Source: Squalus acanthias
Lineage: Eukaryota
Length of the DNA stretch: 64,000 nt
Direction of reading: 5' to 3'
Assembly: GCA_030390025.1 (NCBI GenBank)
Contig: CM059445.1
Coordinates: 2,914,001-2,978,000, forward strand
How positions within the stretch are numbered: the first letter of the stretch is position 1; every line of letters begins with the position of its first letter. A program made the position numbers and the translations under genes. Below are positions 9,343 to 62,018 of the stretch, one piece after another. The notes under the pieces are model-generated. The model saw only the letters and a list, made by a program, of their open reading frames with translations, did no database searches and had not been told where the DNA came from.

Positions 9343-10052
9343 CCCCTCTGCAGTACAGCACCCCTTGACCTTGTTTCTAGGGTCAGGCATAGCTTCTTTC
9401 AGGAGTGCTTAGTACTGGTGCATGGGAGACCTTCGGCTCTAAACTACAGCAGTTTATGGCACCTGGAATATGAAATTAGATTGAACCCAGCCATAATGGA
9501 GGGCTTCACCTGCCTCATTGATGCCCAGAGATCTGCTCCCACAGAGATCTTTGGCTACAGCTGATGAAGTGGCGAGCAGTAGGGGAATGGCAGGAGTTAG
9601 CACAAATGTTGCAGTTGTCTCTTGCATCACATACCAACCTCACTGCCGCCCAACTCAAATGGCGACAGCAGAGTCTTCCAATGTACAGGCCCAGGCAGCC
9701 ACTTCGTCAATAATTGTGGCATCTTCACTTGCAGGGTCATCTTCTCGCCCAGCAATGGGGATGGTGCCACCTCAATCCATTCAGGCAAACACTGAAACCT
9801 CGCAGCATCCACTCACTTTGTCTTTCTACTGGTTGAATACTTAGAATGAGCACAAGGTTAGGAAGAAGAAATGACACCTCATACATTTAGGACTAAAAGG
9901 AAGCACCAGGGCAAAACACATTGAGCGCCTTCATCATTCACTGTAAGGGATAGTGAAAGCTCCATTGATTAACACTTGGATGTGTCTTGAAAATTCAATT
10001 GTTGTGAGGCAGATTCAGTCTGTTGGGGAGAAATGAGGTGGTATTCATAGAT

Positions 10053-10170
10053 AATAACAACAGAAAATGCTGGAAACACTCAGCAGGTCAGGCAGCATCA
10101 AGGAGAGAGAAACAGAGTTAACGTTTCGGGTCGAGGACCCTTCGTCAGAACTGGAAAAGGTTAGAGAAGA
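10053..10170 (-). mobile_element. Short Penelope-type insert (single arm) with target-site duplication
   Basis: Flanked by tggtattcatagat (10039-10052) and tggtattcacagat (10171-10184); same sequence as the arms of the palindromic copies. Confidence 0.75.
10116..10152 (-). ncRNA. Minimal type I hammerhead ribozyme motif
   Basis: Minus strand AGTT-CTGACGA-A-GGGTC-CTC-GACCC-GAAA-CGTT-AACT: CUGANGA and GAAA boxes, 5-bp stem II, 4-bp stem I, palindromic ACGU stem III. Activity not shown. Confidence 0.72.
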
Positions 10171-11929
10171 TGGTATTCACAGATGCTGATGTACATCTGG
10201 GCTGTATGGAAGGAACTTTAAGTGAAATTTTAGCCTTGTGCACATGATGTGCGCACGCTCCGAGCACACACTTCATATGCCCATTACATTATGGCACACT
10301 GGATGAATCGGGCATGGAGAAAGCCTCAGGCCTTCATACCCAATAATATGGGGAGCCAGTGCTCAATGTGCATCGCAATGGGCATCAGCCAGCACATGTT
10401 CACTGTAGCTGGAAGTTAAGTACCAAACAAATGACAATCAAAATTATAACATTTATCGTCATACCAAGATGACGTCATAAAGTTGGAGCAGACACTGGTC
10501 TAGTGCAGTTTGTTTTCAAGAACGTTTACTATTTCGTTTTCATTTAACTTCAATGGATTGGATATCGGACTGCATGCCATACAGAAGGCCGATACATCAA
10601 TTGATAAATGGTCACACTCTTAAACAGAATGGTTAGCCTAGTTAAACCTCACATATTTTCCCCCCCAAAGTTACAATTTCAAGAGTAATCTTTTTTTAGG
10701 TCAAAAATATTTGAAAATGAATACTATACTTTACTGCTAGTGTCCTGGAGGAGCAGAAGGAAGCTTTACAAACATTCAAATTTAAGTTTTAAAAGTGTGA
10801 TGGAATGAAATTTCTAAAGCTTAGCGCTCGCCTGCAGCTGCTTGAACTACCTCGGGGAGTGGCCTCACATCTCTTGGCTTTAGTGCGGTCATGAGTTGAA
10901 TGCCTCCTGAACTGTGCTACCACTTTTCATCCACTTCTCATTGATCTGGAAGCTGCAAGAGTTCCAAACTTCCTTGTCAGGACATGAAGTTCAGGATAAT
11001 TTCATTATTTTTTAAAGAAAGTAATTTGTTCACCAGTGGTCATATTCCAACTCTTTCCATCCCAGTTTCTCACCACTACTGCCACACAGATTGCTTTAAT
11101 CCTGGGCTCTCTGAACAATGGTTACATGCAACGTATCCTTATCCTGTTGTTTGTCGCTGCTGGCCTCAGCTAACTGTGCAAAGGGACCAGTTTCTCAATA
11201 CCAGTCCAAGAGCAATTGGAATGGAGCTGCTAGGAAATCGAGAAGACAGCAGGAAGCAATCAACATGGTCTCAGTAACAAGAAACGGAGGGGCAAGAGCA
11301 ATAAGCATGAGATTGTGTCAGAAATCAGGGGACAAGGGCAGTCAGTATGCAACCAGTAACAAGAAACCACAGGACCAGGCAAACCCGGGAAAACTGACAG
11401 GAATCATATATAAACCTCTTAAAACGGTTAGTTCAAATCATTCAAAATCTATTCCAGGTGCACGAAAATGCCCTGTATCTTATTTCACAGAGTATCGGCA
11501 GCAAGAGATTTTCAGAAAACTGAGCCATCCTAAATTCCCAGACTAATTAATAAACAATGAGGATAGGGGTTTTCCGCTAAAATAATGCTTTTAAGCAGGA
11601 TCGAGAGGTTCAAAGTGTTAAAACTGACTCAGTCCTTTAATTTTACGTCCCTTTCATTTCAACTTCAGTTTTCTGCTCGATCTACCTTTTTGCATTTCTG
11701 TTGTTGCCGCCGGGGCCTCTCCACTGGTCTGAAAAACACTACAGTCTTCAAGGAGAGCAGCTCCAGTTTTGTAAAGTGTAGTGTTGTAACAGCACCATTT
11801 CACAGTCAATCTCCTGCAAGCTAACACTGCGCAGCTAGCTGTGTGTGCGGTAACAGAGATAGCACAAATAGGTTCATACGCAGTGTGAAATTTGGAAACA
11901 AGCTTGCAGTTCAATACAAGGACAGGGTT

Positions 11930-12318
11930 GGCTGAGGAATGGCCTGCAGTCTAGGTTTCCCCACTGGCCTTACTTTAACACAGGGTGACCCAGTGTAAAA
12001 CAAATGCTTAACAGCTGTATTAAAATAACGCCGATTGGCTCGTCCTAGCTTGTATACATGTGTTATAGGAGACCGAGTATGGGAAAGTGAAAGTATAGAC
12101 CCGGAATTTCCCACTGAAATTCACATGTAACTGATTTACACCAGCTTTACGCCGAAACATCGCTACGTGCGAGTTTCCTTGATCATTTGCGCTCTCCCAA
12201 GTTACATCCACTAAAACCCCATTTAGATCATTAACAGAGGTCCGTACCCCACGCAAATGACCAGAGAACCTGAGTTTCCTGCATTAACGCCTGTTCTGAA
12301 GGGTGTAAATTTACACCC
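11930..12318. mobile_element. Probable Harbinger-type MITE remnant
   Basis: Ends in aaatttacaccc (reverse complement GGGTGTAAATTT); CpG-enriched; left end unclear. Confidence 0.4.
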
Positions 12319-12559
12319 AAAATTTTAAGTGCAGCAGGGCCCAAAGACTATTTCTGGTGTTCTATCGTGATTTTTTGAAAGAGACCTGTGCTATATTTTT
12401 GAATGCTTTTTTATGGCACCGGAATCTGATATGTTAAAAAGAAGAAAAGCTGCCACAATTTTCTTTTCTTTAACATGTTGTGCTTAATATGCACAAATGA
12501 TGCTTTGATGGCTTCAAACTTTAATTTGCATAACATCAATAAGATAAAGAGGGAATTAA

Positions 12560-12798
12560 AGAAAGAACACGGTGTATATTCGGCGCTTTCCTCGGGCCCA
12601 ATTGTTTACGCTGATTTCTGATGGTTTTTATGTTCCAGTGTATGCGAACAAGATTCTCAGGAAATTTTGATATAAATTGCCGTTGGCAAGATTGGCGTAA
12701 AATTGGGTGTAAATTTTGGCGTATTTTCAGTGTGCGATCATCGTCTTAAAACTGCTGCTTACATAGGTTGCTTTTTATGAATAAAATAAATTCACCCC
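12560..12798. mobile_element. Probable Harbinger-type MITE remnant
   Basis: Ends in aaattcacccc (reverse complement GGGGTGAATTT); internal repeated ggcgtaaaatt motifs. Confidence 0.35.
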
Positions 12799-16510: not shown

Positions 16511-19490
16511 AACACCGATTAGAAGGACCTATTAAAGAACGTGATCAAAAACATACACTCGTCTGTCACAACAACATAGTTCAACTTAATTTTTTTTTAA
16601 TGACAAAACATGCACGCCCGACCCTTTTGTGTTAATTTCCTTCCCACTTTGCAGTCATGTTTCTCATCATCTACTACGTATAAAAATCATTAGGATTTCC
16701 CAAACAAATCACTGCCCCTCTCCCCCAGCAAGGGTGCAGGCAGGCACTTGCACGGTAATAGAGCCAGTCCTTTTTGGCATGTGCAAGCTATTTCATTGAA
16801 GATGGAAAGCACAGACGAATTGCTACTTTATGGCCTCTTGACTGAGTGGGCTGACCTGCTCCTTCATGTGCTAGCAACCATTACAAAGGATCTCACAGAC
16901 TGGAAATCACATGCAGCTGTGGCCAACCTCAGGTCCTCCGTGAGGCTCCAGCCACTTGGGGAACAGGGATGGGGGTTTGGCTCCTCGGCAACTGTTACTA
17001 GGAGGGTAGCAACTTGTTAGAGCAAGCAGCCGCGCTGTGAGCAGGGGAAGGCGTAACGCCGGTGTGTGTAACGGTGTGTAGAGTGGCTCTGTTACAATTA
17101 AAACATAGCAGCAATGACCGTGTAATACTATAGCAACACATGGATTGTAGACTGAAGAATTCTCCAACTATAATCCAGCTTTTTAAAATAAAATCTGCGA
17201 AATAAAGAGCCGCACTGTACTGTAGAGACATATTAATTATTGCAAGAGTGCATCATTCGGCTTTTTTGTAATAAAAGTGAAAGAGTCTACGTTGGTGAGG
17301 TGTTCATGAACACATTCATCTGTAAATATACATACTCCATTGCACCCATTTTAAGGTGTAATAATTGTTTTAAAGAAGCTATTCCAGTAACATCCTAACA
17401 CTGATCACTGATCAGGCATGTCTGTATTCATGGAGATGTGCATTCCTGCATTGTGTGGCTCTGGTATACCCATTTTTAAGTTAAGTGAAAACCATTTGCC
17501 CATGGGTGCATGAACAGCACTGTAACATAAATCTCTCCCATCAGCTCCCCCTGCGCTGCAGGAGGAGGGGATTCGAGAAGGTTAAAAGTACACTTAAGGT
17601 ACACTATTGTTTTGGAACTTTAGAAAGAGGCCTGCTTCTCGCAAAGGGAACAGAAGATTACTAATGTGAAAAAGGGCCGTGCTTCAGGCAATTTTGAATG
17701 GACAGAAATTTGGTACATGATCCTGTGAATGGGTTTGAAATAACAAGAGTTTGTAAGCACTCTCTTCAGTGAAGCTTCGTGAAATTACTGCATATCTGTC
17801 AGAATATAGTCGACTGCCAACCACTAGTTGGGCAAAATTAAAACTGCTCTCAGCAAATCTCGTCATGCTGCGTTTATTTAAATAGTACTTCAGTCTTCCC
17901 ACAGATAGTGCTTTAGACAAATAAACTTTTCACTGGACCAGTACCATCACAAAACCCCCTGCTGATGAATGAACTTTTGACCTCTAATCCCCAGAGAAGA
18001 GAGTATCACAGCCACACTCCCAAGAAGTAAATAGACTCCTGGCTGAAACATAATTCAAAATGCCGCTACACTGCAGAGTGCTGCTACATATCGACTTTTT
18101 GTGCACTGCAATTCATTTGTATACAACAGATCACAGGCATTTTGTAAAGGGACGTAGAGGGAAGCCGATTTAGCAGCACACTTACACCATATTGCTAAAT
18201 CAATATTTTATTAGTTTTTCTGTTGCAATGCAGAATGACAGAAAAGTGCCATGCTAAATTAGATAATGTGACACGTAATATATCACCACCAAAGTCAGCA
18301 ATTTCTTATTGCCTCGCAAATAATTTAATACATTTTTCTCCCCAAATTTTAAGCCTTTCTCTCCTCCCCTCTCCAAACACAGTGTACCATTCTCGCATGT
18401 GAGAATAGCTGAGCAAAACCTACTCTCGTGTTTCTGCCAGTGCTGCGTTCGATCCAGCCACCAGGAGGCAGCCAAGCACCACCAGTGATGGTTTCACCCT
18501 CAAGTCTCTCCTTGCTCTTGAATGGAGAAAGAAAGGAGGAAACGGAAAGGACACCAGGGCTCTAATGAGGACAAGAGTTGCAAAATCAATGTGTGGGAAA
18601 CTGCAGATAAAAGCTCACATGCTAGCACTCCACGGCACAACTTACTGGAATTCCATATACACTACAGCACTTTATTTCCCTTTTCTAAATAAAAGTATTT
18701 GCACGGTCGTAGAGCCGGTAGTTTTGTGTGCCATATTGTGAAGCAAAGGATAAATTGCAGCTATATCATTTAGAGACCAAGGATGAATTGGAATTGAAGC
18801 CAACACTATGGAACATTTCACTCTCCTTTCACTTGTAAACCCTGTCACAAGGGTCAAGAGAAGCAGCATTCTTTCTACACTGGGCAGCCAGACATTGGCA
18901 GTACTGTTCTGGCACTTCACTGGTCATTCTGGGCAGATTCACACTGTAAATGTACAGTTGGGGAGAAGTCATTTCATTTCGCACGAATGCTCCAGTTACA
19001 GAGCAAGTGCAGCTTGAATCGAACGTCAGGGCCGACCTGACTCGGGAGCAAAGAGCAGCGAGATTCCCTGTTGGACAAAAGTCTCACTCCCTTTCTCTTC
19101 GGAGACATCGACAACCAATTTACACTCCACCAGTTTAGTGTCAGCGCAGGGCTGTGTGTTGGCACTACACTTCCATTGTCTCACTGTGGCAGCTCCATTT
19201 AGAACATGTAAACTCAAATTACAAACCTCCCTTTACTTCACCAGCTCTGCTCTTTTGAGGAGCCCAGTGTGAGAAGAGAGGGCTGGGTGATTGGATAAAC
19301 AAGTGGACATGCTGCTGACCTATGGAGGGGCCAGTTTGCCACCAGGGCAGACACAGACTCACCAAATGGTATATTGAAGAATTATCAGAATGAAAAATCA
19401 TACTTACTCTTTAGAAAATGCCAAATTACATTTAATTGCTAATTAAATTTTCATTCAGGGTCCCGAGTATAACGTTATAAAGGAAAAAAA

Positions 19491-19822
19491 TGAAAGAACT
19501 TGCATTTATATAGCGCCTTTCACAGCCTTAGGACACCCCAAAGTGCTTCACTGTCAATGAAGTACTTTTGAAGTATAATCATTATTGTTATGTAGGGAAA
19601 TGCAGCCAATTTGCACACAACAAGGTCCAACAAACAGCAATGAGATAAATGACCAGACTGTCTCATCCAAAAGACAGCACATCGGATAGTGCAGCACTCC
19701 CTCAGTACTGCAATGAAGGGTAATCTTAAATGATGTGAGTACGTGTCTGGAGTGGGAGTTTGAACCCACGACCTTCTGACTCAGAGTCGAGAGTGCTACC
19801 ACTGAGTCAAAGACCGATACCC
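19491..19822 (-). mobile_element. Deu-SINE (SacSINE1-like), internally deleted
   Basis: Head (tgaacccacgaccttctgactcagag) and tail (cttgcatttatatagcgcctttcac) present; central Deu segment missing. Confidence 0.85.
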
Positions 19823-22080
19823 TATGCGCATCGCTTACTACAGTTATAACCTGCAGGAGTGCACCAGGCTCTGTGCAGTTAGCAGGTTACAAACGTCCAC
19901 AGTTTTACACTGCACACACTCCATGTGTACACATCAGAGCTTCTCACTCTTTAAAATGGGAAAACAATGAGGATATGCCATTGTTTTACATTAACAGTGC
20001 AGGATATATGAAGAATCTATTCAAGGTTGCCAACGCCATGCACATGCTCAATACTATTAAGTCCATATTTCTACAGTATTTCTATAATTCCCTTGTCCAC
20101 GTTGGGCATGCACACAGCATCACAGGATTGTGATATTGTTCCGAGTCTGTTTCAGTAGCTTTGAGAGAATAGAGTCTTAAGTATAAGCTATGTTTTGTGG
20201 TAAAAAAAAATTCAATTACTCAATAATTCGAATTAGGGGACATAAATAACACAACAAAGTGGGAATTTAATGCTAAAAAACCCAGAATGATCAGATAATT
20301 TGAATGAAGTGTCTTGGAATTAAGAGGAATAGACTGCAATAAGTTTATACATTACTACTGTGACTAACATTATTCATCTTCCTGACTATCCACCAGAATT
20401 TTCACAGAACAAATGCTTGCACAAAATGTTGCTTCATTGCACAGCAACTAACACCAATCTCCTCCTGTCCAAAATAATTCAACCACACATCGCAAGAAAG
20501 ATTAAATTCAATCTACGTCATTTGACTTGTACTTGTGCCCATGTTCCTGCTGCACCATACGAATGAGAGCAACATTTTGGGACTCGCGATTATCCTCCAA
20601 ATCTTATTATCCCCCTGAAAGTGCTGGGGGGGTGGGGTTGGATGTCCCCTCAGTTTTGATGGGTACAGGACATTCACTGTATAGTAGATTGAGGTCGTTC
20701 ACGCTTTGATGTTATATATGACATGCCACCTGGGACTCATAAGACTCTCGAAATTTTCTTTAATTTTTTTCCTCAAATGACAAGCATTTCCATTAAGCAG
20801 GACGGCCGTTTCTGCATTTGCCCAATATGGTTAACTGGAACAGCAACTTGAAATAGTTCCTGGCAGTGGAGCTGTGCAAATATTTCAGGGCCTTCCCAGA
20901 GCGGAGTTAGTAAGGGAGATGGCAAGGGTCACTCTCCAACTGCTAAACTTTCGCAAACAAATGAGAATGGTACACGGTGTACAATATGTTATAGGGAAAA
21001 TAATTTCAAAGGCTTTATCAGCAGTCGTTTAGCATTGACCTTAATAAATTAAAGAAAGTGCTGAACATTTGCAACAACTTACTGATCTCTAAAACCTGAT
21101 TGGAATTACTTGCAAAGAGTCCTGAATATAATATACATTAGTTTCTAACTAAATTGTACAAAAGGACCAATCCTCAATCATATAGTAATTTCTGAAGCAT
21201 TCAGTCACAGCTCAGGTCTTCTGCCATGGCCTCCGTTATTCAATAATCAGCACTCCCAATTTAGCAGCAACTACAATGGGACAACTTCTCGTCCCTGTCC
21301 AAATTTTCCCAAAGAGCTGTACTGCGATGTTTTTATGTTGAAATGTTCATTTAATGTACTTTCATTCCTCTGGAGGACTATTTATTTTGAAATAATTAGC
21401 CAATCGATTCCCTAATCCAGCTGCTTTCATCCCCTCCCTGACTTTGATCAGTTGTGGTGACAGGCCATCCTGATCCGATCACATCCGTCTCCGTACCCCA
21501 TGCTGTCTGGGAAGCAGAACTGTGCTGCAGGTGCAGACTATTCACCCTCCCACAATTAAAATGGACGTCCTGGTCGAGATGCAGGAGCAGAATTCCAAGT
21601 GTTTTTTTTTAAATGCATATATATTTTAAGTTGGTAGGTTATTGGTGATAGAATCAAAATACTGAATCTACTAGTAATGATACCAATCAAAAGAATGTCT
21701 TTAAATCTGAAGATGTAGCCAGTAAAATTTGCGTTTGTGCATGCCCCAAGGTGGCTCTGTACGACAGGGGGAATCTGCCATCCAGCTCTCCAGAGGTGCG
21801 CATTTTGGAAAGTCTTGGGTGCACAACCTGTATTATTAATGCACCAGGAATCAAGGGCTGCACATCTGTCATCTCCTGAGATGGGCTCCCTCCAAGCACT
21901 GCTCCCCACAGCGTCATGGAATCCTCCTTTCTGCGTTAACACACAATCTATTCACTTCTTGAGATGCACAACAGAGGCCAAACAGGTTTTTAAAACTTGC
22001 TGGGATATGTTTCCCCCCCCCCTTCAACTGCTTGCATCAGTTTTTCTCCATCTTACCTTGTCACACAGGCTTAAGAAAAA

Positions 22081-22259
22081 TTAGTGTCTGAAAATCTGAA
22101 ATAACAACAGAAAATGCTGGAAGTGCACTGCGGGTCAATCAGCATCTGAAAGAATTAAGAGAGGTTAACGTTTCTGACTAAGTCTCTCCCCCCAAAAAAT
22201 ATCAATCATACTTTCTCATTCAGGTGCTGACTACTGAACATCTCCAGTATTTTCTGTTT
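22081..22259. mobile_element. Degenerate palindromic Penelope-type short element
   Basis: cagaaaatgctgg...gttaacgtttc...ctccagtattttctgtttt; candidate TSD ttaagaaaaa at 22071-22080 and 22260-22269. Confidence 0.65.
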
Positions 22260-22494
22260 TTAAGAAAAAAAAGGGAACTGTGGCAAACAGAGTCTGGTGG
22301 TAATGTTGTGTGTGTGGCTCCCTCTGACTGCAGGACTTCATCTCATTCCTCCATCAGAGTCTAATATGGGCAGGTTTGGAGCAAAAACTGCAGAATGATT
22401 CTGATTAATAGAGAGACACACTGCACTGAATATGTCAAAAGCTCCTCTACTGGCTGAGTTCGAAGGACTTCGGAAAAGCTCTTTAGCAGTAATC

Positions 22495-22667: not shown

Positions 22668-22874
22668 GAAAGAAATCTCGAGGATAAACACCCCTGAAAA
22701 TACCTCCAGCAGCTTGCGTTTCATTCACTGATATGAAAGAAATCTCGAGGATAAACACCACTGAAAATACCTCCAGCACCTTGCGTTTCATTCACTGATA
22801 TGAAAGAAATCTCGAGGATAAACACCCCTGAAAATACCTCCAGCAGCCTTGCGTTTCATTCACTGATATGAAAG
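22668..22874 (+). repeat. Minisatellite, three copies of a 67-bp unit
   Basis: gaaagaaatctcgaggataaacacccctgaaaatacctccagcagcttgcgtttcattcactgatat starting at 22668, 22735 and 22802 with 1-2 differences. Confidence 0.95.
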
Positions 22875-25850: not shown

Positions 25851-27644
25851 CTAAGGTCTCTCTCCTGTTCCCACTGAGTACACATTCTTGTTACTTTTTT
25901 GCCAAATGTCAGTCACTGTAAATGTAGCAGCATCAAAATGCATCTTGTACGATAGTACTATCCAGTACAGGGTCCTCAACCCAATTACTGAGGCACTACT
26001 GAATGAATATCATTAGGCCCATTCGGACAGGTAGCTTGAAATTAATCAGGAGCCACACGCTTCAATCACCAGAAATGATCCTCGGAGGGTTTGGTTTAAG
26101 ACTGAAGATGCAATTCATTTAAACAGTAAACCTGGACTGTTCCCTGTGTATTTCGATAAACTGATTTCTGATATGCATCTGCCTTTTTAATGGCTTTTGA
26201 AGCCTTTTCATGATATCTGAATTTAACCGAAAAGCTCCTGGCTTCATGATATAGCTCATTACCTTCTGCAGGAAATGTTATTAAGGAACTTAATTTGCCA
26301 CTATTGTCAATTTTGAAAAGACATTCGCACCAAGAAAATGTTTTATGCCCTGGCAATATTCACCCATGTAAATCGACAAATATCAAAATCATTGCATGGA
26401 AATATTACATTTGTTTGAACAAAAATGAATTAAAATTCCATTAGTTCTATTCATTTGGATAATTGTACAGATACCAATTTAGGGTGGGACATTTTTTGTG
26501 TTTGTAAAGAGCACCCCCTTTGTGATTTTAATTATGCCTACCTCTTATCAGCAAGATCACTTCACATAAATCACATGACATGCTTGACATGATGTTTTAG
26601 CTGCCCATCTTAGTGGAGTGTTTTAAACATGGGGGTGTAATTCAGCTGCAATTAGAAACCGTGTTGGAGATGGTATATGTGAGCTATTCCATGCTGTCAG
26701 AAATGCTCAACATAGTTAGGATACTGTAGCCTTCCTCTATGCCACAAACTACATCACTCCCAGCTGCAGCTTAATTTTCTGTGACTTGTCTAATTACTGT
26801 AATTAAACATTAATTGCCATTAATTATTCACACATAAGCTAGTCGCAAGTCAAGTGGTAAAAGCCAGATGAAATCTGTCGTACAACTTACATGTGAACAC
26901 TGTGCACTGTTCAATGTTGGCAGGTCATTGGCTTTGCCCATGACGGAACACAAGGCGAGACCCCCTAAAATCCTCGGGGCTCTGGCATTGGCACTGCAGC
27001 CTAAAGTCACAGTCAGACAGGGCAGAGGCCTGCAATCACCGGCAGCTCTTCCAAATTCTCTCTACACCATCCATTATGCCCAAAGCAACAGCCTGAGAAA
27101 GTCCCTTCAAGTATCAGGCAATAAAAATAGAAACACTGCATACTAATAATTGTCATGCTAATAATTGGGGGGAGGGGGGGCATATTTACTGTACTCCGTC
27201 TACATTTTACAAAAAAAAACTATAAATGCTTTTGTGGTTACAGAAATGCTGTCCCCCAGACAAAAAGAACCGAATTCACTCAGACATTTTTGCTTCATTC
27301 CAGATTACAAAATGTAATGCTCTGTGTATCTCAGTGACTGGAAACACATCTAGATACAGAAAAATATAAAAATGGGCCACGCAAAGTATTAAACTAGGAA
27401 CAATTTTAAAGCTGCACCCAAAGAAAACGACATAGAAGGGAATATTTCTGACTGCAAGACCGGAGACCTTTAGTGAGAAATGTTGATGTTTTTGGCATTA
27501 GAGGGAGCACTAACATAGCAGACAGCGTGTCTACCCCCCGATGGTCAAAAGGCAATTCACACTTCAATTTGCGCTTGTATATGACTGGATGCAAATTAGG
27601 AAGCCAGAGGCCCAATTGACTGAGCACAGAATCTTTGGCTAAAT

Positions 27645-27822
27645 AAAAACAGAAAATGCTGGAAACACTCGGCAGGTCAGAACTGACACTTGAGGAAAGG
27701 TCATCGACTTCAAATATTAACCCTACGTTTCTCTCTCCACAGATGCTGCCAGACCTGCTGATTGTTTCCAGCATTTTCTGTTTTTATTTTGTATTTCCAG
27801 TATCCGCAGTATTTCGCTTTTT
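27645..27822. mobile_element. Asymmetric palindromic Penelope-type short element
   Basis: Short left arm and full right arm; TSD atctttggctaaat (27631-27644) / atcttttgctaaat (27823-27836); hammerhead core mutated. Confidence 0.75.
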
Positions 27823-29026
27823 ATCTTTTGCTAAATGCTTGGCTTTCAAACAAAATCCAACCTCAAATCCTGTGTAACAGGGTGATGAATGCAAGTTCCT
27901 TAAATTTTACTTTAAATTGAGATGTTACCCAAGAGAACAAGGTGGTAAATTAATCAGCTATTTTATACACTGCTACTTCAAATATAGATTTAAATTTAAC
28001 TGCACACCCTGGTCAAGAACAGAATGTCTGATGTCAGTTTTATAGACATAAACATTATTACTACGAGCGGGCCAAGTGAAGTGTCCGAAACCGGTCATGC
28101 AGCTGTTTGTAAAAACCTGAAGCATGTCCTGTACAGTACTGTACTTGTAAAAGCTGCCAGGGATTCTTCTGCCTGAAACATCTCTTCTGCACATTGGTCA
28201 CATCATGTGCCACAAATGCCAAGTTTATGAGAGGCAATCTTTCATTAATGTATGAAAGCTCTGTTGTGAAAACGTTGTTCAGAGGTCACTGTGCCAGATT
28301 CATCTGGTAGAATCGCTAAAACGTTAAACAGGATTATAGGCCCAGGACTGGGCTCCCAAAACCTGCAAATTCAGCTTTTCATTGAACAAGTGGCAAATAT
28401 AGAGGAGGCATTTGAAGCAGTGAAATTACTGCTTGAACTCAGATAACTGTCCCACGTATTGTGGGTTAAAGTTCAGTAATAATTATTAATCAGGACCTTG
28501 TCAAAGTTGACAGATTCCTGCCAAGTGAGCCAGGACTATTGCTGAGCATATAAAATACCATATAAAGAACAGGACTGAAAGGTTTGTACAATGTGACTAG
28601 AATGAATGGCTGATTTACTACGGGTGTAGTTAGTATTCTTGCATTGATAACATGAGCATTTCTACAATGTGGTAAGACTAATTTCACTTGCTGAATTGCA
28701 AATTGAAATATTTCATCTCGAGATCTGAGGTTTTGCGACTGAAGGCAATATCTTGTGGATGTGAAGATGTAGTTAAAGAAATAGCAGAACATAATGCACA
28801 GTATGTGCAGGAATATATCATTGTGTTTGATTAAATGGCTGCACTAGAACATGACATCAAATTACATTTTAGACAGATTTGAGTTTTTGTGATGGAAGGC
28901 TGTATTTTATGTAAACATTTATATAAGAGAGAGAGCATTGTGCTATTATAATAAACTCCATGAAGTATTGTATGTGCAAGAATACATCATGTTCCACCCA
29001 AGCACTGCAGGATAAAGCATCGATGT

Positions 29027-29452
29027 TAAAGAAATAAAGAGTTGCATTTCTATAGCGTCTTTCACGACCTCAGGACGTCTCAAAGTTCTTCACAGCCAAT
29101 GAGGCACTTTAGGAGTGTAGTCACTGTTGTAATGAGGGAAACGCAGCAGCCAATTGCGCACAGCAAGATCCCACAAATAGCAATGTGATAATGACCAGAT
29201 AATCTGTTTTTGTTATGTTGGTTGAGGGATAAATATTAGCCAGGACACCGGGGATAACTCCCCCTGCTCTTCTTCGAAATAATGCCGTGGGATCTTTTAC
29301 GCCCACCTGAGAGAGCAGACGGGGCCTTGATTTAACTTCTCATCCGAAGGACGGCACCTCCGACAGTGCAGCACTCCCTCAGCACTGCACTGGAGTGTCA
29401 GCCGAGATTTGTGTGCTCAAGGCTCTGGAGTGGGACTTGAACCCACGACCTT
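29027..29452 (-). mobile_element. Deu-SINE (SacSINE1-like), 5' truncated
   Basis: Reverse complement of the 8409 copy, B box gggacttgaaccc present, tail ttgcatttctatagcg. Confidence 0.88.
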
Positions 29453-29699
29453 AGTTTACATGAATGGAATTTGTTACTCCCTTCAAGTTAGGATAGCACC
29501 ACCGAGCAATAAAAAGGGTAATAGCTGCCTACCTACTGTTTAATCTGATGCAAATCCAAGATTTTTTGAGATCTGTACAGAACCATTAAGGTAAAGGCTG
29601 TAATACGAGGTTTTAAGAAAACAAACCAAGTTCTTCTGAAAGGGATGTGCAGGATGTGCAGAATGATCAGGTGGCCAATGTATCGTTGCTTTAAAGCTC

Positions 29700-32600: not shown

Positions 32601-34102
32601 TAGTTTTCTAATTTACCATATATCTGAGATATGAAAGGGGAACTACTGAAAGTGACTCCCCTTGGAACACTTTTTCCCATTAGCTCATGAACGGTGCACA
32701 TTACGTTCTTAATACCTGCACAATAATGATCACACACTCCTACTTGTCGAGAGCAGGCTAGTTATTTGCAGAGGCATGAATATAACATATTACTGAAGAC
32801 TAGGTCTCAGAGGTGATTTTTCTCAGCTAAGAAGTGGTAATTTCGATAATTCTTTGTTAGGAGTGCTAAATGTTGCTCCAGTCAAATTTATCCGGAAAAT
32901 ATCAGGAGCTCTTGTAAAAAAAACCTTAGCGTTATCCTATTTCCCCACCCCTCTCCCCCTAATATATTATGAGCTCTTTACAAGACAGCTTCGTTTCTAT
33001 TAAAAATATTTCATAAATTTGAGGCTTCAATACCTGTTCTTGAACATCGAGGTATTTAACAAGTCTGCTTAGAGACGAGAAGTAATATCTTTAATGCAGT
33101 CAGTGTGATGATGAGGATGACACACACAGGATGAAGTGGACTTGCCTGCAGGTAATTATACAGTGCCTGGCTGGTGAATCATCGCTCACTATTTCCATTA
33201 TGGCAATTCATCTCTCTAGAAGCATCTCCATACCCAGAGCTGATCCAGGGAGAAGTCTCAGTGGCTCAAAGCAGTGGGGGAGGATTGAAAAAAAAACCAC
33301 ACACACACACTAAGCTTTAAGCACGAATACTGAAAGCCTTTTACCATCATTTTCTTCAGTGTTCCTGTGAACCTGATCTGTGTAACTGAGTTTAGTATCA
33401 ATATTAACCCCAGTGACAAGGCTGCCTCTATAGGGAAGCCACATCTAACCTTTTACAGGACATGAATGCATGGGGCTGGTATCAAATCAATATAAATAAT
33501 AAGACAGTACTTTAAAAAAAATAAAACGCTACATTTTCTACTAGTTACTGTAACTACGCCAGTGGATTAACCTGCAGTCCCTTTCAGAGTCGAGATGGAA
33601 AATTAATGAGTACAACAGCAACTGCAAGTTTAGCATCGCTGATGGTGACATTGTCATGAGCCCAAAGGTTAAATGTAATCAGCCTGCAAAGCCTGTGCTC
33701 TGGCTCTAGCTGCGATGTGCACAGGGTGTGGGGCAGTTGTACTGGTAAAACTGGCAGACTAACAGATATACCTCCTCAAACTACACATAAACATAACAGA
33801 CTGCTGATCTGTTTAATTCCCCGACTCTTCTTTTTTGCTCATTTTTTCAACATCCAGTCATATGTGATTTAGCTGCTATTTTCATACAAGACTGTCAGAC
33901 AGATGTGCAGTGAGGAAAATAACAGTCAGCTGCCGCTAACAATTACTGTGGTGGGGACAACAGTGCTTTAAGAAAGTATTAATAGAAAAAATAAAATGCA
34001 ATACTAAATGACATCTTTCAAATTTCTTTTCCCATTATTTTTAAACATAATTTTTTTTTACTGACCTTGTGAATGATTTTTACCATACACATTATTCTCC
34101 AG

Positions 34103-41373: not shown

Positions 41374-42510
41374 GGGGGGGGGAATTTTCCGGGGGGTCAG
41401 CGGGCGCGATCGGTGGTGGGTCGGTTGGGAAAGTGTTTTTTTTTTTGACAGCAGGTCAGGACCCTGCTGGACCCTGGTCAGATTTACGTCACTTGATGCT
41501 GTACACCCTGGCTGCCACATGATGCGCCAGGTTGACACCACCCCACACCAACACCATAAAGCATCCCTACAATGCCCAAGCCATTCCTTTCACACTCATT
41601 GCGGGGGGTTCCATTATGTCTCACCATTCACTGCAACTCACTAAGCCACTTCCAAAGGTGAACACAAATCTGCCCCAGAACGCAAAGTGTTGAAAATAAA
41701 GATTTCAATGTTTGACAGCACATTAACAGAAACTTCACATGAACATTGGCTAAAACACACAAGTGCCTACCCTTGTGTGTTGTTAGTTGGTATGATTGGA
41801 CTAGGGGGAGGGTGAGTGTGAGGGGTGGCTAGTGAGATGGGGAAGTGATAATGTAGATAGAGAGGGATGGGTGGAGGTGCAAGGCAAGTTGGCGTGAGTA
41901 AGGATGTGCAGGAGTAGGGTATGGAGGGCAGAGTGATGGGGATGTGATGAGAGGCACAGCAGGATGAGGATGAGTGTGGTTTTGCAGTAATGTTTTGTGA
42001 TCTACTGAGATCATTGAAAGGTTTGCGCCACTGCAGCCTGGTCCTCCTGATGACATCCCTGCTTGTGCCCTCCTCTGCAATGTGCAACCAGGCTGCGTTG
42101 ATCTCCTGGGGCTGCCTCTTCCGCCCATGGGAAGGGAAGAGGACCTCCCTGTGTGTTGTGACTCCCTCCATAAGCATATGGAGAGTCATAGGAGAGCCTG
42201 GGTGCAGCCGTGCACCTCTGTGCAGTGCTTGTCAGTGTTTGTTGCACCTCAATGTGTAGAACACTGACAGCACAAATGTCAAAGTAAATTTGCGCATGGT
42301 CCCTTTAAGGAAACTGGCTGATGACGCGCCATCAAATTACGTCATGAGACCTGCTTCCTTCAATTGGACCTGGAAACGCGCTGGGCGGGCTTAACAAGCC
42401 CCATCAGGGTAAAGCCATGTCGGAGGCTGGGATGGAGCCAGCAGCGAGGCCGCGATCCACCACCGACCTCCCCTGCCATGGACCTGCCGAAGTAGGGAAA
42501 ATCGCAGCCC
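41374..42510 (-). mobile_element. Internally deleted PIF/Harbinger element with a Myb/SANT-like ORF remnant
   Basis: Termini gggggaattttcc and ggaaaatcgcagccc with matching subterminal tcggtggtgg; 41990-42200 encodes LMEGVTTHREVLFPSHGRKR..AAWLHIAEE..RRTRLQWRKPFNDL, a Myb/SANT-like trihelix pattern. Confidence 0.75.
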
Positions 42511-45716: not shown

Positions 45717-46335
45717 ATAAAATCCAACACAAACGTATAATCAAGCTTTACCATTTCCACAAAAATGTAAATAAAATCGTATCATTTGAACATGGCCATA
45801 CCATAAACACTCCCAGAACACTTTATAATAAAATTTGTAATTAATTAAATTATTCGATCACCCTAAAACAATGACCCCAATAATATGCTGTAAAGCATGA
45901 AACCACGTCATTTCACACTTCATGAGTAATGCTACCGGAGATCTGCCAGTACATGAACGGGTATACGTACAGGCCCAAGTGTATACGGCAGGTTCATACC
46001 TATGACACCCTTACAACTTACTCCTAATCGGTGCAATGTGGTCATGGGAGGCATGGAGAATTTGGGGTCAAACATGTATTTCAAATGAAAATATACCAGG
46101 CACATGCCATTTTTCTTGCTTTATTTCCCCCCCTCCCTTCAAACATACCCCAGGGCAGGTAGTTTACTTTAATTTGCCATACAGATTATTTACATTGCCA
46201 CTGGGCTTGTAAGCAATAGGAAGTTTAAAAGCTGCTTTAACTTTTTGTTGAATTTGTACCTAACCCTATGTGTTGCCATGAAACTATAAAATGCTTCAAA
46301 CTTTGATAGAAGTCAGATGTTACTAAAACCAGGTA

Positions 46336-46803
46336 GAAAGAAAGACTTGCATTTATATAGCACCTTTCATGACCACTGGACGTCTCAAAGCGCTTTACAG
46401 CCAATGAAGTACTTTTGAAGTGTAGTCACTGTTGTAATGTGGGAAATGCAGCAGTCAATTTGCGCACAGCAAGCTCCCACAAACAGCAATGTGAAAATAC
46501 CCAGATAATCTGTTTTTGTTATGTTGCTTGAGGGAGAAATATTGGCCAGGACACTGGGGATAACTCCCCTGCTCTACTTCGAAATAGTGCCATGGGATCT
46601 TTTACATCCACCTGGGAGAGCAGATGGGGCCTCGGTTTAACATCTCATCCGAAAGATGGCACCTCCAACATTGCAGCGCTCCCTCAGCACTGCACTGGGA
46701 GTGTCAGCCTGGATTATGTGCTCAAGTCTCTGGAGTGGGACTTGAACCTACAACCTTCTGACTCACAGGCGAGTGTGCTACCCACTGAGCCACAGCTGAC
46801 ACT
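46336..46803 (-). mobile_element. Full-length Deu-SINE (SacSINE1-like)
   Basis: Complete from gtgtcagctgtggctcagtgggtagcac (head) to tatataaatgcaagtctttcttt (tail) on the minus strand. Confidence 0.9.
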
Positions 46804-48646: not shown

Positions 48647-49449
48647 GGGCGCGATCTTGCCAGCCCTGGGGAGGCGGGTATGGAGGCTGGACTGCCGGGA
48701 ATATGGTAGAATTTGGGGGCGGGTGCCCAACCCGCCCCCGTGCCATCTTGCCAGGAGGCGGGTAGCCGTCCCGCGCCGGGTCCCGTCTCCTTGGAGGCGG
48801 GAAGGGGATTACAGTCACTTAACTGCCTGTTAACAGGTAGTTAACAGGCAGATAAGAGAATTATCCCCATTTTGCCCACACAAGTGCGGGCTTCCCGAAG
48901 GCTCCGAAACCCGCCAGGGTCAGAGGCGTGTACTGGGTCTGCGGGGTCCAAAAGTGTGCTGTGGAGGTGAGTGATGGGTGCAAGTGTGGAGAGGTGAGTA
49001 TCTGAGGTAAGTGCAAAGTGTTAGAAAAAGTGTACTTACCTTTGTTTCTTCCTGCAGGCTTCAGTCAGTGGGTATGCGGAGAGTCTCGCATCTCCGCAGT
49101 AGAGATGCTCCAATGCAACAACCATCTCATTTCTACAAAAGAAAGAGGTTTGATGAGGTCTTGAATTCAAGAACTCATCAAACTACAGAGAATGTCACTG
49201 TTTGACAGCGTCACAGAGATGGCAAACGATGACAATTTATCTGAAAAAATGTGACAGATGAAACGTCATACATTGACGTTCTCTGTAACCGGCTTCCCCT
49301 TAATTGGCCTGCTGAGCCCGCTGGGCGGGCTTAACAAGGTCAATCAAGGGAAAATAGCGTGGGTTGGCCAGAAGTTGATGGAGGCGGGACTGAAACCCAA
49401 CAAGTGGGAGTCCCGCCTCCAAAAGCTCCCCATTGGCAAAATCCAGCCC
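48647..49449. mobile_element. Complete Harbinger-type non-autonomous element
   Basis: TIRs GGGCGCGATCTTGCCA / TGGCAAAATCCAGCCC; 3-bp TSD TGG (48644-48646 and 49450-49452); subterminal cgctgggcgggcttaacaag shared with the 41374-42510 element. Confidence 0.8.
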
Positions 49450-49483
49450 TGGGTGTCCAAAGTGTTCCATTTCTCAGTTTCAG

Positions 49484-51459: not shown

Positions 51460-51895
51460 TGAAGCTAAAATCTGCCTCAGCTCCACTGGGTAAGGAGAGG
51501 AGTTAAAAACAACAGCCAGGGTTCCTGCTCAATACTTCTGATGGAAAGTGGGCGTGTGGATGTCGTTAGAAGACTGGATTGGCACAATCACACAAGAATG
51601 GGCAATAAAAAAACCCAGAAAATGCTGGAAATACTCAGCAAGTCAGGCAGCATCTGTGGAGAGAGAAACAGAGTTAACGTTTCAGGTCAATGACCCTTCG
51701 AAGGGTCATCGACCTGAAACGTTAACTCTGTTTCTCTCTCCACAGATGCTGCCTGACCTGCTGAGTATTTGCAGCATTTTCTGTTTTGATTTCAGATTTC
51801 CAGTGTTTTGCGTTTGATGAAGAATGGGCAATGGGTGAGGTGCCTTGGTCCCCAGGAAGGGCCAGCATCTTCAAGGTAAAAGGGAAGAAAGGTTA
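51460..51895 (+). mobile_element. Old AmnSINE2-like SINE, split by the palindromic insert
   Basis: gcctcagctccactgggtaaggagagg...cagccagggttcctgctc...gtgtggatgtc before the insert and aagaatgggcaatgggtgagg after it. Confidence 0.55.
51607..51819. mobile_element. Spacerless palindromic Penelope-type element
   Basis: 84-bp arms 51616-51699 / 51700-51783 with 3 mismatches; perfect 13-bp TSD aagaatgggcaat (51594-51606 and 51820-51832). Confidence 0.85.
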
Positions 51896-52837: not shown

Positions 52838-53577
52838 GGGCCGAAAATTGATCCCGGGACGCGAGAGTACGCACTGCGTACTCTCGCGTATTCCCACTCC
52901 AATTGCCGGCTTTCTGCATGCCCTGCGCATGCGCTGAAAACCGGCAATTGCTCTTCTGAAAAGGGGGCGGGGCCTGGGTGCATCGCGTGCGTGCTACAGG
53001 CTGCGCGCACGCTGTGCACTTCATGCTTTGGACGCGCAGGTAAGTAGGGAAGATTTTGGAAATGTAAAAAGGAGTAAGACCCGCTTTTAAGAAGGTAAGT
53101 AGTGAATTAAGTATTTTTTTGAATTTTTTTTTACAGGTATATCTTTTTTATAGACTTTAAAGACAGGTAAGTTTATTTTTATAACTTTTTAAAAGATTTT
53201 AAATTTTTTCAAAAATTTAATTTTTTATTTAAAATGGTTAATTTAATTAACTATACTTATTTTATTAATGTGATGGTTTTTTTTTAAATTTAATTGAGGT
53301 TTAGCTGTTATTTTGGGGGGGTGTAAGATTCATAGATTTCACAGCCATGCTGTGAGACTTATGAATGGAAGATGGTGTGCTGCCATTGGCTCTAACTGAG
53401 TCACGTGATCCCACAGCTCGCACGAATTCACTACGCCGCTGGGATACGCAAGCACTGCCCAGCTGATGTCTGGAACATCAAGTTCGTGCGAGCTGGATCT
53501 GAAAAAGCATAAGCGAGGTGAGACATCGCGGGGAAGGCTTACCCCCGCGGGAACAGAGCGAGATCAATTTCTGGGCC
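52838..53577. mobile_element. Complete Harbinger-type MITE with CpG-rich ends and AT-rich centre
   Basis: TIRs GGGCCGAAAATTGATC / GATCAATTTCTGGGCC; 3-bp TSD CTT (52835-52837 and 53578-53580). Confidence 0.78.
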
Positions 53578-59279: not shown

Positions 59280-59722
59280 AAAGAAAGAATTTGTACTGTA
59301 GTGCCTTTCATAACCTCAGGATGTCCCAAAGCACTTTACAACCAATGAAGTTGTTTTGAAGCATCACTGTTGTAATGTAGGAAACGTGGCAGCCAAATTG
59401 CACACAGAAAGGTCCCACAAACAGCAACGTGATAATGACCAGATAATCTGTTTTAGGGATGTTGGCTGAGGGATAAATATTGGACCGGACTCCCCAGCTC
59501 TTATTCAAAACAGTGCCATGGGATCTTTTGGGTCCACCTGAGGGGGCAGACAGTGCCTCGGTTTAACTACTCATTCGAAAGACGGCACCTCCGACAGTGC
59601 AGCACTCCCTCAGTACTGAGCTGGGAGTGTCCGCCTGGATTATGTGCCCAAGTCGCTGGAGTGGGACTTGAACCCACAACCCTCTGACTCAGATGAGAGA
59701 GTGCTACCCACTGAGCCAAGGA
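59280..59722 (-). mobile_element. Deu-SINE (SacSINE1-like), near full length
   Basis: Same sequence as 46336-46803 with A and B boxes. Confidence 0.88.
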
Positions 59723-60339
59723 CATGACCACTGTTATGTCTTTAGGAAAGTCTGTACTAACATTATAATTTCACCAGCATTTCAACACCTGCTTTCCCTC
59801 TATAGAGTTATGCAGTGTCAGCAATATAACTAAAAGCAGGCACTGCTCTTAAACAGTATCTGCACCTTTACTGCAGCGATAACTCACTCAACAAGCAGTC
59901 ATTCATCCTCTTAGCCGACAGTAGAACTATCAAAGAGACAGTTTTTTGTGCCTGTAATTTTATGTCTCTTGAATCGCAAGTCTTAAAAACAAAAGTAACA
60001 GATTGTGTAATACCAGCTTCAGATCATCTGCTGGTCTCATTTTGCAGGCTCATTGCCTCAACTTGGAGTCCAAGGAATTTTGTCTTTCTCTGAATTTCAA
60101 GCTTTTGAAGGTTTCTGCCAATAACAGCATTTTAATACCACAATGGGATCTTCTTTCCTAGGCTAACATTGTACAGCAAATCTCTATTGGAGTAGAAGGC
60201 TTCTTCAATACAAATGTTAATAATCACCTCACTATCTGCTCCTTTCTACAATCTATCTGCCAGCTGAAGGATGCACAACTTATTTGCCAAAGTACTGAAT
60301 CACTATTTCCTGGATCCTCTACCTCATCAGTGTTCTCTC

Positions 60340-60990
60340 CCTCATCATGCTGAAGGTCTCATCCAGTGGTGGCTCCATGTGTTGTCCCCATTGCAGAGCA
60401 AAGTAATGCAGCACTCAGCAAACCACCAACATATGGGACATTCTTTCTGGGCTGTATTGCAGGAAGCCCCCAGAGCTGCCCAGGCAGTGGAATCGTTGCT
60501 TATGGACTCGAAGAGGGTCCTCGTTGACCCATGGATCTGACTGTAGTGTAATCCGGCCACCGAGCAGAGTTATCAGAGAGGACTCATGAGCCACATGTGC
60601 AAGGGATAGCCCTTCTCCCCAATCAGCCAGCCTCTCACTTGCTGTGCAGGGGCAAAGAGTGGGGCGATGGAGAAGTGCCGCAAGATAAGAGTCATGGCAG
60701 CTGCCAGGAAAGTGGGCACAGACCTATATGATGCACTGCTGGTGGTCACACGCCAGTTGCACATTAATCAATTCAAAGCACTTGCGATTCATGAAGCAGT
60801 GGGGTTGTCTGAAGGAGACCGTAGGGTGGCCACGGGTGCAGTCAATGAGGCCCTGGACTTGGGGAAAGCCTGCAATCTGGGCAAACCCCAGAGCCCCGTC
60901 CTGCTGCTTCCAGTTGTCCATGGGGAAAGTGATGAAAGTGTTTGCTTTAGCAAACCTGACATCAATCACCCGTGGCATTGCTCATGTCTA
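60340..60990 (-). pseudogene. PIF/Harbinger (HARBI1-like, DDE_Tnp_4) transposase remnant
   Basis: Across frames: FAQIAGFPQVQGLIDCT, FMNRKCFELINVQLACD, FPGSCHDS, LIGEKGYPLHMWLMSPL, HGSTRTLFE, SGGFLQYSPER..VVC*VLH; frameshifts and stops. Confidence 0.88.
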
Positions 60991-61139
60991 GTTCTGGACC
61001 TGAAGTGTGGTTTCTCACACTTGCCTTTTGGCGTTACTGCAGATTCACTGAAGCAATATATCACACAACTGACTAGGTAAAAATATTCCATACATTACTG
61101 ATGATAAAAGAAGGCGGCCTCAAAACGATACATTTATTA

Positions 61140-61358
61140 CATTGGAAATACTCAGCAGGTCAGGCAGCATCTGTGGAGAGAGAAACAGAGTTAACGTTTC
61201 AAGTCGATGACCCTTCGTCAGAACTGACGAAGGGTCATCGACCTGAAACATTAACTCTGTTTCTCTCTCTCTCTCCACAGATGTTGCCTGACCTGCTGAG
61301 TATTTCCAGCATTTTCTGTTTTTATTTCAGACTTCCAGCATCCGCAATATTTTGCTTT
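61140..61358. mobile_element. Palindromic Penelope-type element with two back-to-back hammerhead cores
   Basis: Arms 61143-61221 and 61224-61308, 2-nt spacer; TSD tacatttatta (61129-61139 and 61359-61369). Confidence 0.85.
61189..61225 (-). ncRNA. Minimal type I hammerhead ribozyme motif
   Basis: Minus strand AGTT-CTGACGA-A-GGGTC-ATC-GACTT-GAAA-CGTT-AACT; stem II closes with two G-U pairs. Confidence 0.6.
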
Positions 61359-62018
61359 TACATTTATTAATTATTTATTTACCACTTTGTAAAACTTGCT
61401 CACGATGCAGGTAACAGCTCCTCCCTTCCCAAACCTCTTTTTCCCAGTTATTTACATTATAATTCTTTTTTGCTCTACCTCCCACCATCACTGTGCTTAA
61501 GATGCAAATAGTTTACTTGTTTATCTTTCCTTCTTCAAAACTCCTCTTTTTTCTAATTTGTGAAAGGATAGGTTTCTTCTTCCCTCCCCCCTTACTCCCC
61601 ATGTGGACTTGTAGTTCTTGCTGAAGATATATATAGGGACTGCCTAAGAGAAGAGAGAGAGATCATTGATGTAGCACTGTCCAGAGAGATTTTCCCCACT
61701 ATTAAGTCTACAACGTCCAGTGCTGTAACAGGTTAATTGGCTGAATTATTGCTTTCAGGTGTAATGTCAAATAACCCCGTCTGGCCGTGCTGCAAACTTC
61801 AGTGCCCCTCCAGCAACACAAAACGATCCCAAACAACCACCTTATAGTCAGAAATTTTATTTAATGGCTTCAACTATAAAAAGCTGCTAAAATTGAAAGT
61901 TTTATCTTTTGTCTCCGATTGTGCCTCATAGTTAATTCTAAATTTGCTGCCTCAGTCACAATATACTCTGCTGTTCCACAGAAGGAAAGTGAGAATACTT
62001 TCATCATGCATCTCTCGA

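What the first reader, a model, noticed from the sequence alone, without database searches (positions are those of the whole stretch)
10039..61369. Family of tiny hammerhead-bearing, often palindromic retro-inserts with long TSDs
Seen: six related 120-220 bp inserts (4355, 10053, 22081, 27645, 51607, 61140). Five have 10-14 bp direct flanking repeats and none has an ORF. The inner end of each arm is a hammerhead-like CTGACGA..stem..GAAACGTT motif, or a decayed version. Known: Penelope-like retroelements carry minimal type I hammerheads in their pseudo-LTRs and often insert with an inverted terminal copy. Inference: these look like MITEs but the long, variable TSDs point to target-primed retrotransposition. 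They may be a non-autonomous ribozyme-centred element, like a retrozyme but in head-to-head form. The inversion point sits at or next to the ribozyme in the best-preserved copies, which suggests the ribozyme region defines the element end.
Basis: partly seen in the sequence, partly recalled or inferred. Interest (0 to 1): 0.75.

Follow-up and report, generated by a model that had tools for sequence, protein, structure and literature searches.

The report
Truncated Penelope retroelement ends, often hairpinned
The six short inserts are real, very abundant repeats that are likely the clipped-off ends of Penelope-like jumping genes, carrying a small predicted hammerhead ribozyme and usually a mirror-image second copy, an arrangement already described in other animals.

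Summary
Observation largely confirmed. Six related inserts (118-219 bp) lie in the window. Five have 10-14 bp flanking direct repeats (1 of 391 random sites scores as well); the sixth has a marginal 12-bp one. Five are head-to-head palindromes and one is a single arm. A complete minimal type I hammerhead exists in only 2 of 11 arms. The features match published Penelope-like element (PLE) insertions: minimal hammerhead, inverted 5'-truncated copy, long variable TSD, and an optional tail on one arm only (5 of 5 palindromes). In public contigs the arm is hugely abundant (30,129 contigs laid in one run). Inversion points fall at 8 different positions, each at near single-copy depth, mostly at self-complementary spots inside the ribozyme. 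None is at the predicted cleavage site, and the element continues upstream of the ribozyme. A palindrome's RNA is predicted to fold into one long hairpin that buries the ribozyme. So 'Penelope-type retro-insert' is supported, while 'head-to-head retrozyme whose ribozyme defines the end' is not. The coding parent (RT plus GIY-YIG) was not found with these tools. The scan noted such end-pieces before, in this and other genomes.

The parts
4376..4534 (.). Old palindromic insert (about 80% identical to the young copies); left arm starts inside the usual end, right arm carries an 18-nt tail remnant (4517-4534)
4364..4375 (+). Possible left TSD of the 4376 insert (partner 4535-4546; 10 of 12 bases match; marginal)
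4535..4546 (+). Possible right TSD of the 4376 insert
10053..10170 (-). Single-arm insert, no tail, reaching 22 nt upstream of the hammerhead core
10116..10152 (-). Complete minimal type I hammerhead motif: 4-bp helix I, CUGANGA plus one extra A, 5-bp helix II, GAAA, palindromic ACGU; predicted cut between 10120 and 10119
   Evidence: consensus in PMC4209133 supplement
10039..10052 (+). Left TSD (14 bp, 1 mismatch)
10171..10184 (+). Right TSD
22081..22259 (.). Old palindromic insert; tail remnant on the left arm (22081-22099), short end on the right; decayed ribozyme with a different helix II
22071..22080 (+). Left TSD (10 bp; partner 22260-22269)
22260..22269 (+). Right TSD
27645..27822 (.). 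Palindromic insert; left arm short-ended with an internal deletion of about 60 nt, right arm with decayed ribozyme and a 34-nt tail (27789-27822)
27631..27644 (+). Left TSD (14 bp, 1 mismatch; partner 27823-27836)
27823..27836 (+). Right TSD
51607..51819 (.). Young palindromic insert; spacer-less centre at 51699/51700 inside the ribozyme core, so both arms lack the first four core bases; 28-nt tail on the right arm (51792-51819)
51594..51606 (+). Left TSD (13 bp; partner 51820-51832)
51820..51832 (+). Right TSD
61140..61358 (.). Young palindromic insert; junction at 61219-61226 with a 3-nt overlap; left arm starts about 16 nt inside the usual end; 32-nt tail on the right arm (61327-61358)
61189..61225 (-). 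Complete minimal hammerhead motif of the left arm of 61140
61224..61248 (+). Hammerhead core of the right arm, without a helix I 5' strand
61129..61139 (+). Left TSD (11 bp; partner 61359-61369)
61359..61369 (+). Right TSD

Best explanation
The inserts are likely heavily 5'-truncated insertions of an endonuclease-containing Penelope-like retrotransposon, each probably made separately by the protein of a coding parent element that was not seen here. Shown: TSD-flanked inserts, a shared terminal sequence with two alternative outer ends, a minimal hammerhead motif, head-to-head arms, and differing junctions. Inferred from published PLE work: the GIY-YIG endonuclease makes a staggered cut in AT-rich DNA, and the RT primes from the cut inside the element RNA at one of two start sites about 30-35 nt apart, which gives the optional tail. 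Inferred here: synthesis often stops after only 100-150 nt, in the structured ribozyme region. The new cDNA end then finds a short self-complementary spot (helix II, a CG, or the CAG/CTG overlap just upstream of the core) and the inverted second arm is made in the same integration event, most likely by fold-back or template switch. Repair leaves the 10-14 bp TSD. The ribozyme is a passenger of the parent's terminal repeat; in a palindromic copy it is predicted to be buried in a hairpin and inactive.
For: TSDs far above chance and variable in length, 76% AT (47 of 62 bases) against 58% for the window. The motif fits the metazoan PLE min-HHR consensus, including the extra base after the core, G10.1-C11.1 and the palindromic CG. 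Tail on exactly one arm in 5 of 5 palindromes; contigs show a mix of tail and flank beyond the short end (loose ends at 10053, agreement 0.40-0.48 in 4 of 4 runs). Published PLE descriptions have the same set: inverted 5'-truncated copy and 30-40 bp tail at one end (PMC8557442); head-to-head inverted pLTRs with 8-10 bp TSDs, 31-bp optional tail and palindromic junctions read as self-priming (PMC3846280); dual min-HHRs on opposite strands 100-700 bp apart (PMC4209133); two RT start sites bounding the tail, both strands cut and extended, ribozyme cleavage not needed (PMC11167929). Junctions differ between 51607 and 61140. In contigs, 10 listed strand-switch rows give 8 inner positions, 1-3 contigs per run each, at depths of 10-86 in run X1 against 15-42 on unique flank; no place where many molecules begin or end was reported. 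Both arms of a copy share a variant base (G in both arms of 27645, A in both arms of 51607 and 61140), as expected if both come from one template.
Against: No coding parent was found: no genome is held, no PLE-type domain among the 150 longest of 190 open stretches of the window, and the arm's one open frame found no RT protein. Rfam has no match to the ribozyme. The contig joints are few (15 of 23 rows shown, 20 contigs in the 10 strand-switch rows), their 'from' side coincides with a private deletion of the reference copy and is unreliable, perfect high-copy palindromes may break contigs and stay unseen, and junctions upstream of 10170 could not be seen. 27645 and 61140 share 12 bases across their junction, and 4 of 10 rows fall at that spot. 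The spacer-less centre of 51607 is hard to make by simple fold-back and fits annealing of two cDNA ends as well.
Confidence: 0.8

Rival explanations
1. A non-autonomous palindromic subfamily: a hairpin copy formed once is transcribed and copied as a whole unit by the PLE protein in trans, keeping its junction.
For: 27645 and 61140 share 12 bases across the junction; 4 of 10 strand-switch rows (6 contigs, two organisms) fall at 10150-10152 and 5 of 10 in helix II. Two left arms (4376, 61140) start about 16 nt inside the usual end, as a 5'-clipped unit might. pLTR sequence alone can mobilise unrelated DNA in trans (PMC3846280).
Against: 27645 and 61140 differ by a variant present in both arms of each; arm identity within a copy (86/89, 76/79) is no different from between copies (73/75); every listed joint is at near single-copy depth; the recurring spots are self-complementary, so recurrence is expected from independent events; a 150-kcal hairpin is a poor template.
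Confidence: 0.12
2. A retrozyme-like element: ribozyme cleavage releases a small RNA that circularises and is reinserted.
For: A complete minimal hammerhead in 2 of 11 arms; long TSDs are also reported for metazoan non-LTR retrozymes (PMC7229834); 3 listed 'goes back' rows in contigs suggest rare head-to-tail arm repeats.
Against: Retrozymes are head-to-tail repeats with canonical ribozymes; here 0 of 6 inserts are head-to-tail, no insert end or listed junction is at the predicted cut, the motif is the PLE minimal type, and palindromic RNA buries it.
Confidence: 0.03
3. A SINE-like retroposon moved by a LINE rather than by a PLE.
For: TSDs of 10-14 bp and 5' truncation are general TPRT marks; a LINE-type RT fragment lies in the window (397-996).
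Against: No poly(A) or simple-repeat 3' end, no match of the arm to the window's LINE or SINE repeats; symmetric head-to-head arms with an optional tail are a PLE signature.
Confidence: 0.03
4. A DNA-transposon MITE with long terminal inverted repeats.
For: Short, non-coding, palindromic, very high copy number.
Against: TSD lengths 10, 11, 13, 14, 14; the two outer ends differ in 5 of 5 palindromes; a single arm has its own 14-bp TSD; depth falls gradually through the inner end.
Confidence: 0.02

Closest known systems
Canonical EN+ Penelope-like elements: insertion architecture (Arkhipova et al. 2013, PMC3846280; Craig et al. 2021, PMC8557442; passages read)
   Same: Head-to-head inverted 5'-truncated copy, 8-10 bp TSDs, optional tail of about 31 bp on one arm, palindromes at the inverted junction, strong 5' truncation.
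   Different: Here only the last 100-150 nt are inserted, TSDs are 10-14 bp, the density is about one insert per 10 kb, and the coding parent was not seen.
Minimal hammerheads (min-HHR) of metazoan PLE pseudo-LTRs (Cervera and de la Pena 2014, PMC4209133; parts 1-2 of 4 of the text and part 2 of 3 of one supplement read)
   Same: Short helix I, CUGANGA plus one extra base, G10.1-C11.1, GAAA-CGU-H with no helix III; mostly found as single motifs from truncated PLEs, also as pairs on opposite strands.
   Different: This sequence family is not in the alignment read; 'shark', 'Callorhinchus' and 'Leucoraja' had no hit in the searchable supplement (one file not searchable). Cleavage untested here.
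PAc, Poseidon-type PLE of Anolis carolinensis (Frangieh et al. 2024, PMC11167929; parts 1-2 of 4 read)
   Same: Two RT start sites bounding a 30-40 nt tail downstream of the hammerhead; both target strands cut and extended; AT-rich targets; the terminal repeat holds an open frame.
   Different: No sequence comparison was possible; whether the open frame in this arm is the ORF start is unknown.
Metazoan non-LTR retrozymes and plant LTR retrozymes (PMC7229834, PMC4918200; passages read)
   Same: Small, non-coding, hammerhead-bearing, TSD-flanked.
   Different: Retrozymes have same-strand tandem canonical ribozymes that bound a circular RNA; these inserts have opposite-strand minimal motifs and ends away from the cut site.

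Membership tests
EN+ Penelope-like element | Single ORF with PLE-type RT and GIY-YIG endonuclease upstream of this terminus | tested here: inconclusive
   No genome held; none in the window; protein searches with the arm's open frame found no RT. The reference laid ended 22 nt upstream of the core.
EN+ Penelope-like element | Minimal type I hammerhead in the terminal repeat | tested here: met
   Complete motif in 2 of 11 arms, the only 2 hits on both strands of the window; fits the published consensus. No Rfam match.
EN+ Penelope-like element | Inverted 5'-truncated copy joined head-to-head | tested here: met
   5 of 6 inserts; strand-switch joints in 2 of 4 runs.
EN+ Penelope-like element | Optional 30-40 bp tail at one end only | tested here: met
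   Tail on one arm in 5 of 5 palindromes: 28, 32, 34 nt in young copies, 18-19 nt remnants in old ones; absent from the single arm; mixed loose ends in contigs.
EN+ Penelope-like element | Variable TSD of roughly 8-14 bp and variable 5' truncation | tested here: met
   TSDs 10-14 bp in 5 of 6; inner ends differ between copies.
EN+ Penelope-like element | Ribozyme self-cleavage as a dimer or with protein help | not testable with these tools
   Needs an in vitro assay.
Non-LTR retrozyme | Head-to-tail repeats of a 150-450 bp unit with canonical same-strand hammerheads | tested here: not met
   0 of 6 inserts; motif is minimal and on opposite strands. Three 'goes back' rows in contigs are the only hint.
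Non-LTR retrozyme | Circular RNA bounded by the cleavage site | not testable with these tools
   Only contigs were available.
MITE (class II) | Fixed-length TSD and two equal inverted termini | tested here: not met
   TSDs 10, 11, 13, 14, 14 bp; unequal outer ends; TSD-flanked single arm.

The most novel reading that the evidence does not exclude
The ribozyme fold itself acts as a built-in stop and turn-around point for the Penelope RT, so that most events yield a hairpin with a tail on exactly one arm, and one junction class (the CAG/CTG overlap just upstream of the core, seen in 61140 and perhaps 27645) has become a non-coding palindromic retroposon that is copied as a unit: a MITE-looking class I element.
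Probability: 0.12. Interest if true: 0.5.

Novelty: new member of a known kind. Interest (0 to 1): 0.14.

Why it matters
As a system it is ordinary: each feature is described for PLEs. Its use is practical. Such inserts can be misfiled as MITEs or microRNA hairpins (Rfam gave weak mir-14 and mir-9201 matches). A genome with roughly one insert per 10 kb also offers a very large natural sample of junctions, tails and TSDs for the open question of how PLEs make their inverted arm and one-sided tail.

Tried and rejected
Own genome: not held. Rfam to E = 5: no hammerhead; only below-threshold microRNA matches to the hairpins, rejected as structure-only. Collection scans for the arm: metagenome contigs 0 hits with a 50-mer and 7 with a 21-mer, genome contigs 4, viral contigs 0 in two scans; all 11 loci are 53-68% GC and match little beyond the pattern, so they were rejected as chance. 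The arm's open frame (41 codons) as the start of a PLE protein: 1 candidate and no hit among longer proteins; 4 phmmer hits, 3 short unnamed ORFs without Pfam match that look like translations of related repeats and 1 unrelated repeat protein. Pfam scan of the 150 longest of 190 open stretches: a LINE-type RT, PBC and Myb/SANT, no GIY-YIG. Paper searches for this family: arm words in full text gave 9 unrelated listings; searches for palindromic or MITE-like non-autonomous Penelope derivatives and for Penelope in sharks (listings only) showed no paper on it; Dfam and Repbase could not be consulted. Lunse et al. 2017 is not held and is known here only through a review passage (PMC6765202). Summed contig depth was not used as a copy number. 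The rows of table 5c were left out of the joint count because their kind is not given. Sequence look-ups in earlier findings returned nothing. Ribozyme cleavage as the end-maker was rejected: no insert end or listed joint lies at 10120/10119.
Full report
Setting. The window is 42% GC animal DNA. Two exons of a PBX-type gene (Pfam PBC, E 3e-32 and 5e-24) lie on the minus strand at about 1341-1646 and 2712-3026, and no other host-gene domain was found among the 150 longest of 190 open stretches, so the inserts are probably intronic. No whole genome is held.

Observation. Blastn with three arms finds six loci and 11 arms: 4376-4534, 10053-10170, 22081-22259, 27645-27822, 51607-51819 and 61140-61358, together 1.7% of the window. 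Five have direct flanking repeats of 14, 10, 14, 13 and 11 bp; 1 of 391 random positions scored as well. The sixth has a 12-bp repeat with two mismatches, at a score that 20 of 391 random positions reach. The five clear TSDs are 76% AT against 58% for the window. Four copies are young (85-97% alike) and two are old (about 75-85%).

Ribozyme. In 10053 and in the left arm of 61140 the minus strand reads as a complete minimal type I hammerhead: 4-bp helix I, CUGANGA, one extra A, 5-bp helix II, GAAA, CGU-U, then the helix I partner. A relaxed descriptor allowing one core mismatch finds these two and nothing else on either strand. This fits the consensus for metazoan PLE min-HHRs in PMC4209133 (text parts 1-2 of 4; supplement alignment). 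Rfam gave no hammerhead match to E = 5. The other nine arms are cut or decayed: both arms of 51607 lack the first four core bases, the right arm of 61140 lacks helix I, and three arms have no recognisable motif. Activity is untested.

Two outer ends. All arms share one terminal sequence that stops either at a short end or 28-34 nt further on (18-19 nt in the old copies). Each of the 5 palindromes has the long end on exactly one arm; the single arm has the short end. This is the 'tail' of PLEs: 30-40 bp, often at one end only (PMC8557442, passages; PMC3846280, passages). In the anole element PAc it lies between two RT start sites, both target strands are cut and extended, and ribozyme cleavage is not needed for insertion in vitro (PMC11167929, parts 1-2 of 4).

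Other copies. Twenty-four listed runs from 13 studies hold part of the 51607 stretch, among them organisms A-J. I laid 4 of these 24 runs on the single arm (10025-10205, 80% likeness): 30,129, 14,725, 1,957 and 1,756 contigs were laid. In X1 the summed depth is 15-42 on unique flank, 9.6 million at 10074-10080, 5.3 million at 10123-10129, 2.5 million at 10144-10150, 0.75 million at 10158-10164 and 0.18 million at 10165-10171. This is not a copy number, and contig edges and the reference's own variants shape the curve, but it shows a very abundant repeat that continues upstream of the ribozyme. Loose ends beyond the short end give the tail as consensus with only 0.40-0.48 agreement in all four runs, so tailed and untailed ends are mixed. 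Of 23 joint rows 15 were shown; 10 are strand switches (20 contigs, runs X1 and X7). Their inner ends are 10132 (2 rows), 10135, 10138, 10139, 10150, 10151 (2 rows), 10152 and 10164, each in 1-3 contigs per run at depth 10-86 in X1. None is at the predicted cut (10120/10119), and no place where many molecules begin or end was reported. Three rows go back by 81-99 bases, a hint of rare head-to-tail arm repeats. Limits: the 'from' side sits on a private deletion of the reference and is unreliable; perfect palindromes may break contigs; junctions upstream of 10170 are invisible.

Junctions. The recurring positions are self-complementary: helix II (10128-10140) and the 3-bp stem at 10146-10153. 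The junction of 61140 is the latter, with a 3-nt overlap; 51607 has a spacer-less centre on a CG inside the core; 27645 shares 12 bases with the 61140 junction but then differs, and its left arm has lost about 60 nt. Both arms of 27645 carry one variant base that both arms of 51607 and 61140 lack, so the arms of an insert come from one source. PMC3846280 reads such junction palindromes as self-priming. The spacer-less case fits annealing of two cDNA ends at least as well, so how the second arm is made remains inferred.

Against the retrozyme reading. The two motifs of a palindrome lie on opposite strands, so any transcript has one sense copy and its complement; the 61140 RNA folds into one hairpin of -148 kcal/mol (z -22 against 200 shuffles; 51607 -152 kcal/mol). 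Retrozymes are same-strand tandem repeats with canonical ribozymes that bound a circular RNA (PMC7229834 and PMC4918200, passages). PMC4209133 already reports dual min-HHRs on opposite strands 100-700 bp apart and reads single motifs as truncated PLEs. Against a MITE: variable TSDs, unequal ends and a TSD-flanked single arm.

What is missing. The coding parent. The arm has one open frame of 41 codons, as PLE terminal repeats often hold the ORF start, but searches with it found no RT protein. Collection scans gave only chance matches in GC-rich bacteria or nothing. No paper on this family turned up; Dfam and Repbase were not available, and one supplement file of PMC4209133 could not be searched.

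Verdict. A real and well-spotted family, most likely short truncated insertions of a Penelope-like element with its usual inverted copy and one-sided tail (0.8). A palindromic subfamily copied as a unit remains possible (0.12). The scan reached similar readings on other DNA; these are unchecked notes and not independent support. Interest 0.14.

Noticed in passing
window 1341-1646 and 2712-3026 (-): Two exons of a PBX-type TALE homeobox gene (Pfam PBC); the rest of the window is probably its long intron.
   Followed up: partly
window 397-996 (-): 200-codon RT fragment (RVT_1, E 4e-11) of a LINE; by recalled motifs CR1/L2-type, not PLE.
   Followed up: partly
window 41770-42231 (-): Weak Myb/SANT-like match (E 1e-4), possibly a decayed Harbinger-type transposon.
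   Followed up: no
window 8439-8801 (-), 19488-19760, 29030-29487, 46335-46792, 59364-59718: Dispersed repeat of about 460 bp in at least five copies, SINE-like; unrelated to the arm.
   Followed up: no
window 22668-22868: Three head-to-tail copies of a 67-bp unit.
   Followed up: no
window 49148-49183 and 52859-52889: Two small local inverted repeats (36 and 31 bp) unrelated to the family.
   Followed up: no
window 61129-61143: The first bases of the TSD are repeated at the start of the left arm, as after primer slippage; this arm and the left arm of the 4376 insert both start about 16 nt inside the usual end, possibly a minor third start site.
   Followed up: partly
window 51725-51745 and 51776-51795 (+), and the same places in other arms: The arm holds two pyrimidine-rich stretches ending in CAG that resemble 3' splice sites, the first followed by ATG in the open frame; PLE terminal repeats can hold introns.
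   Followed up: no
window 34006-35460: GA-rich microsatellite region with three N gaps (976 N in all).
   Followed up: no
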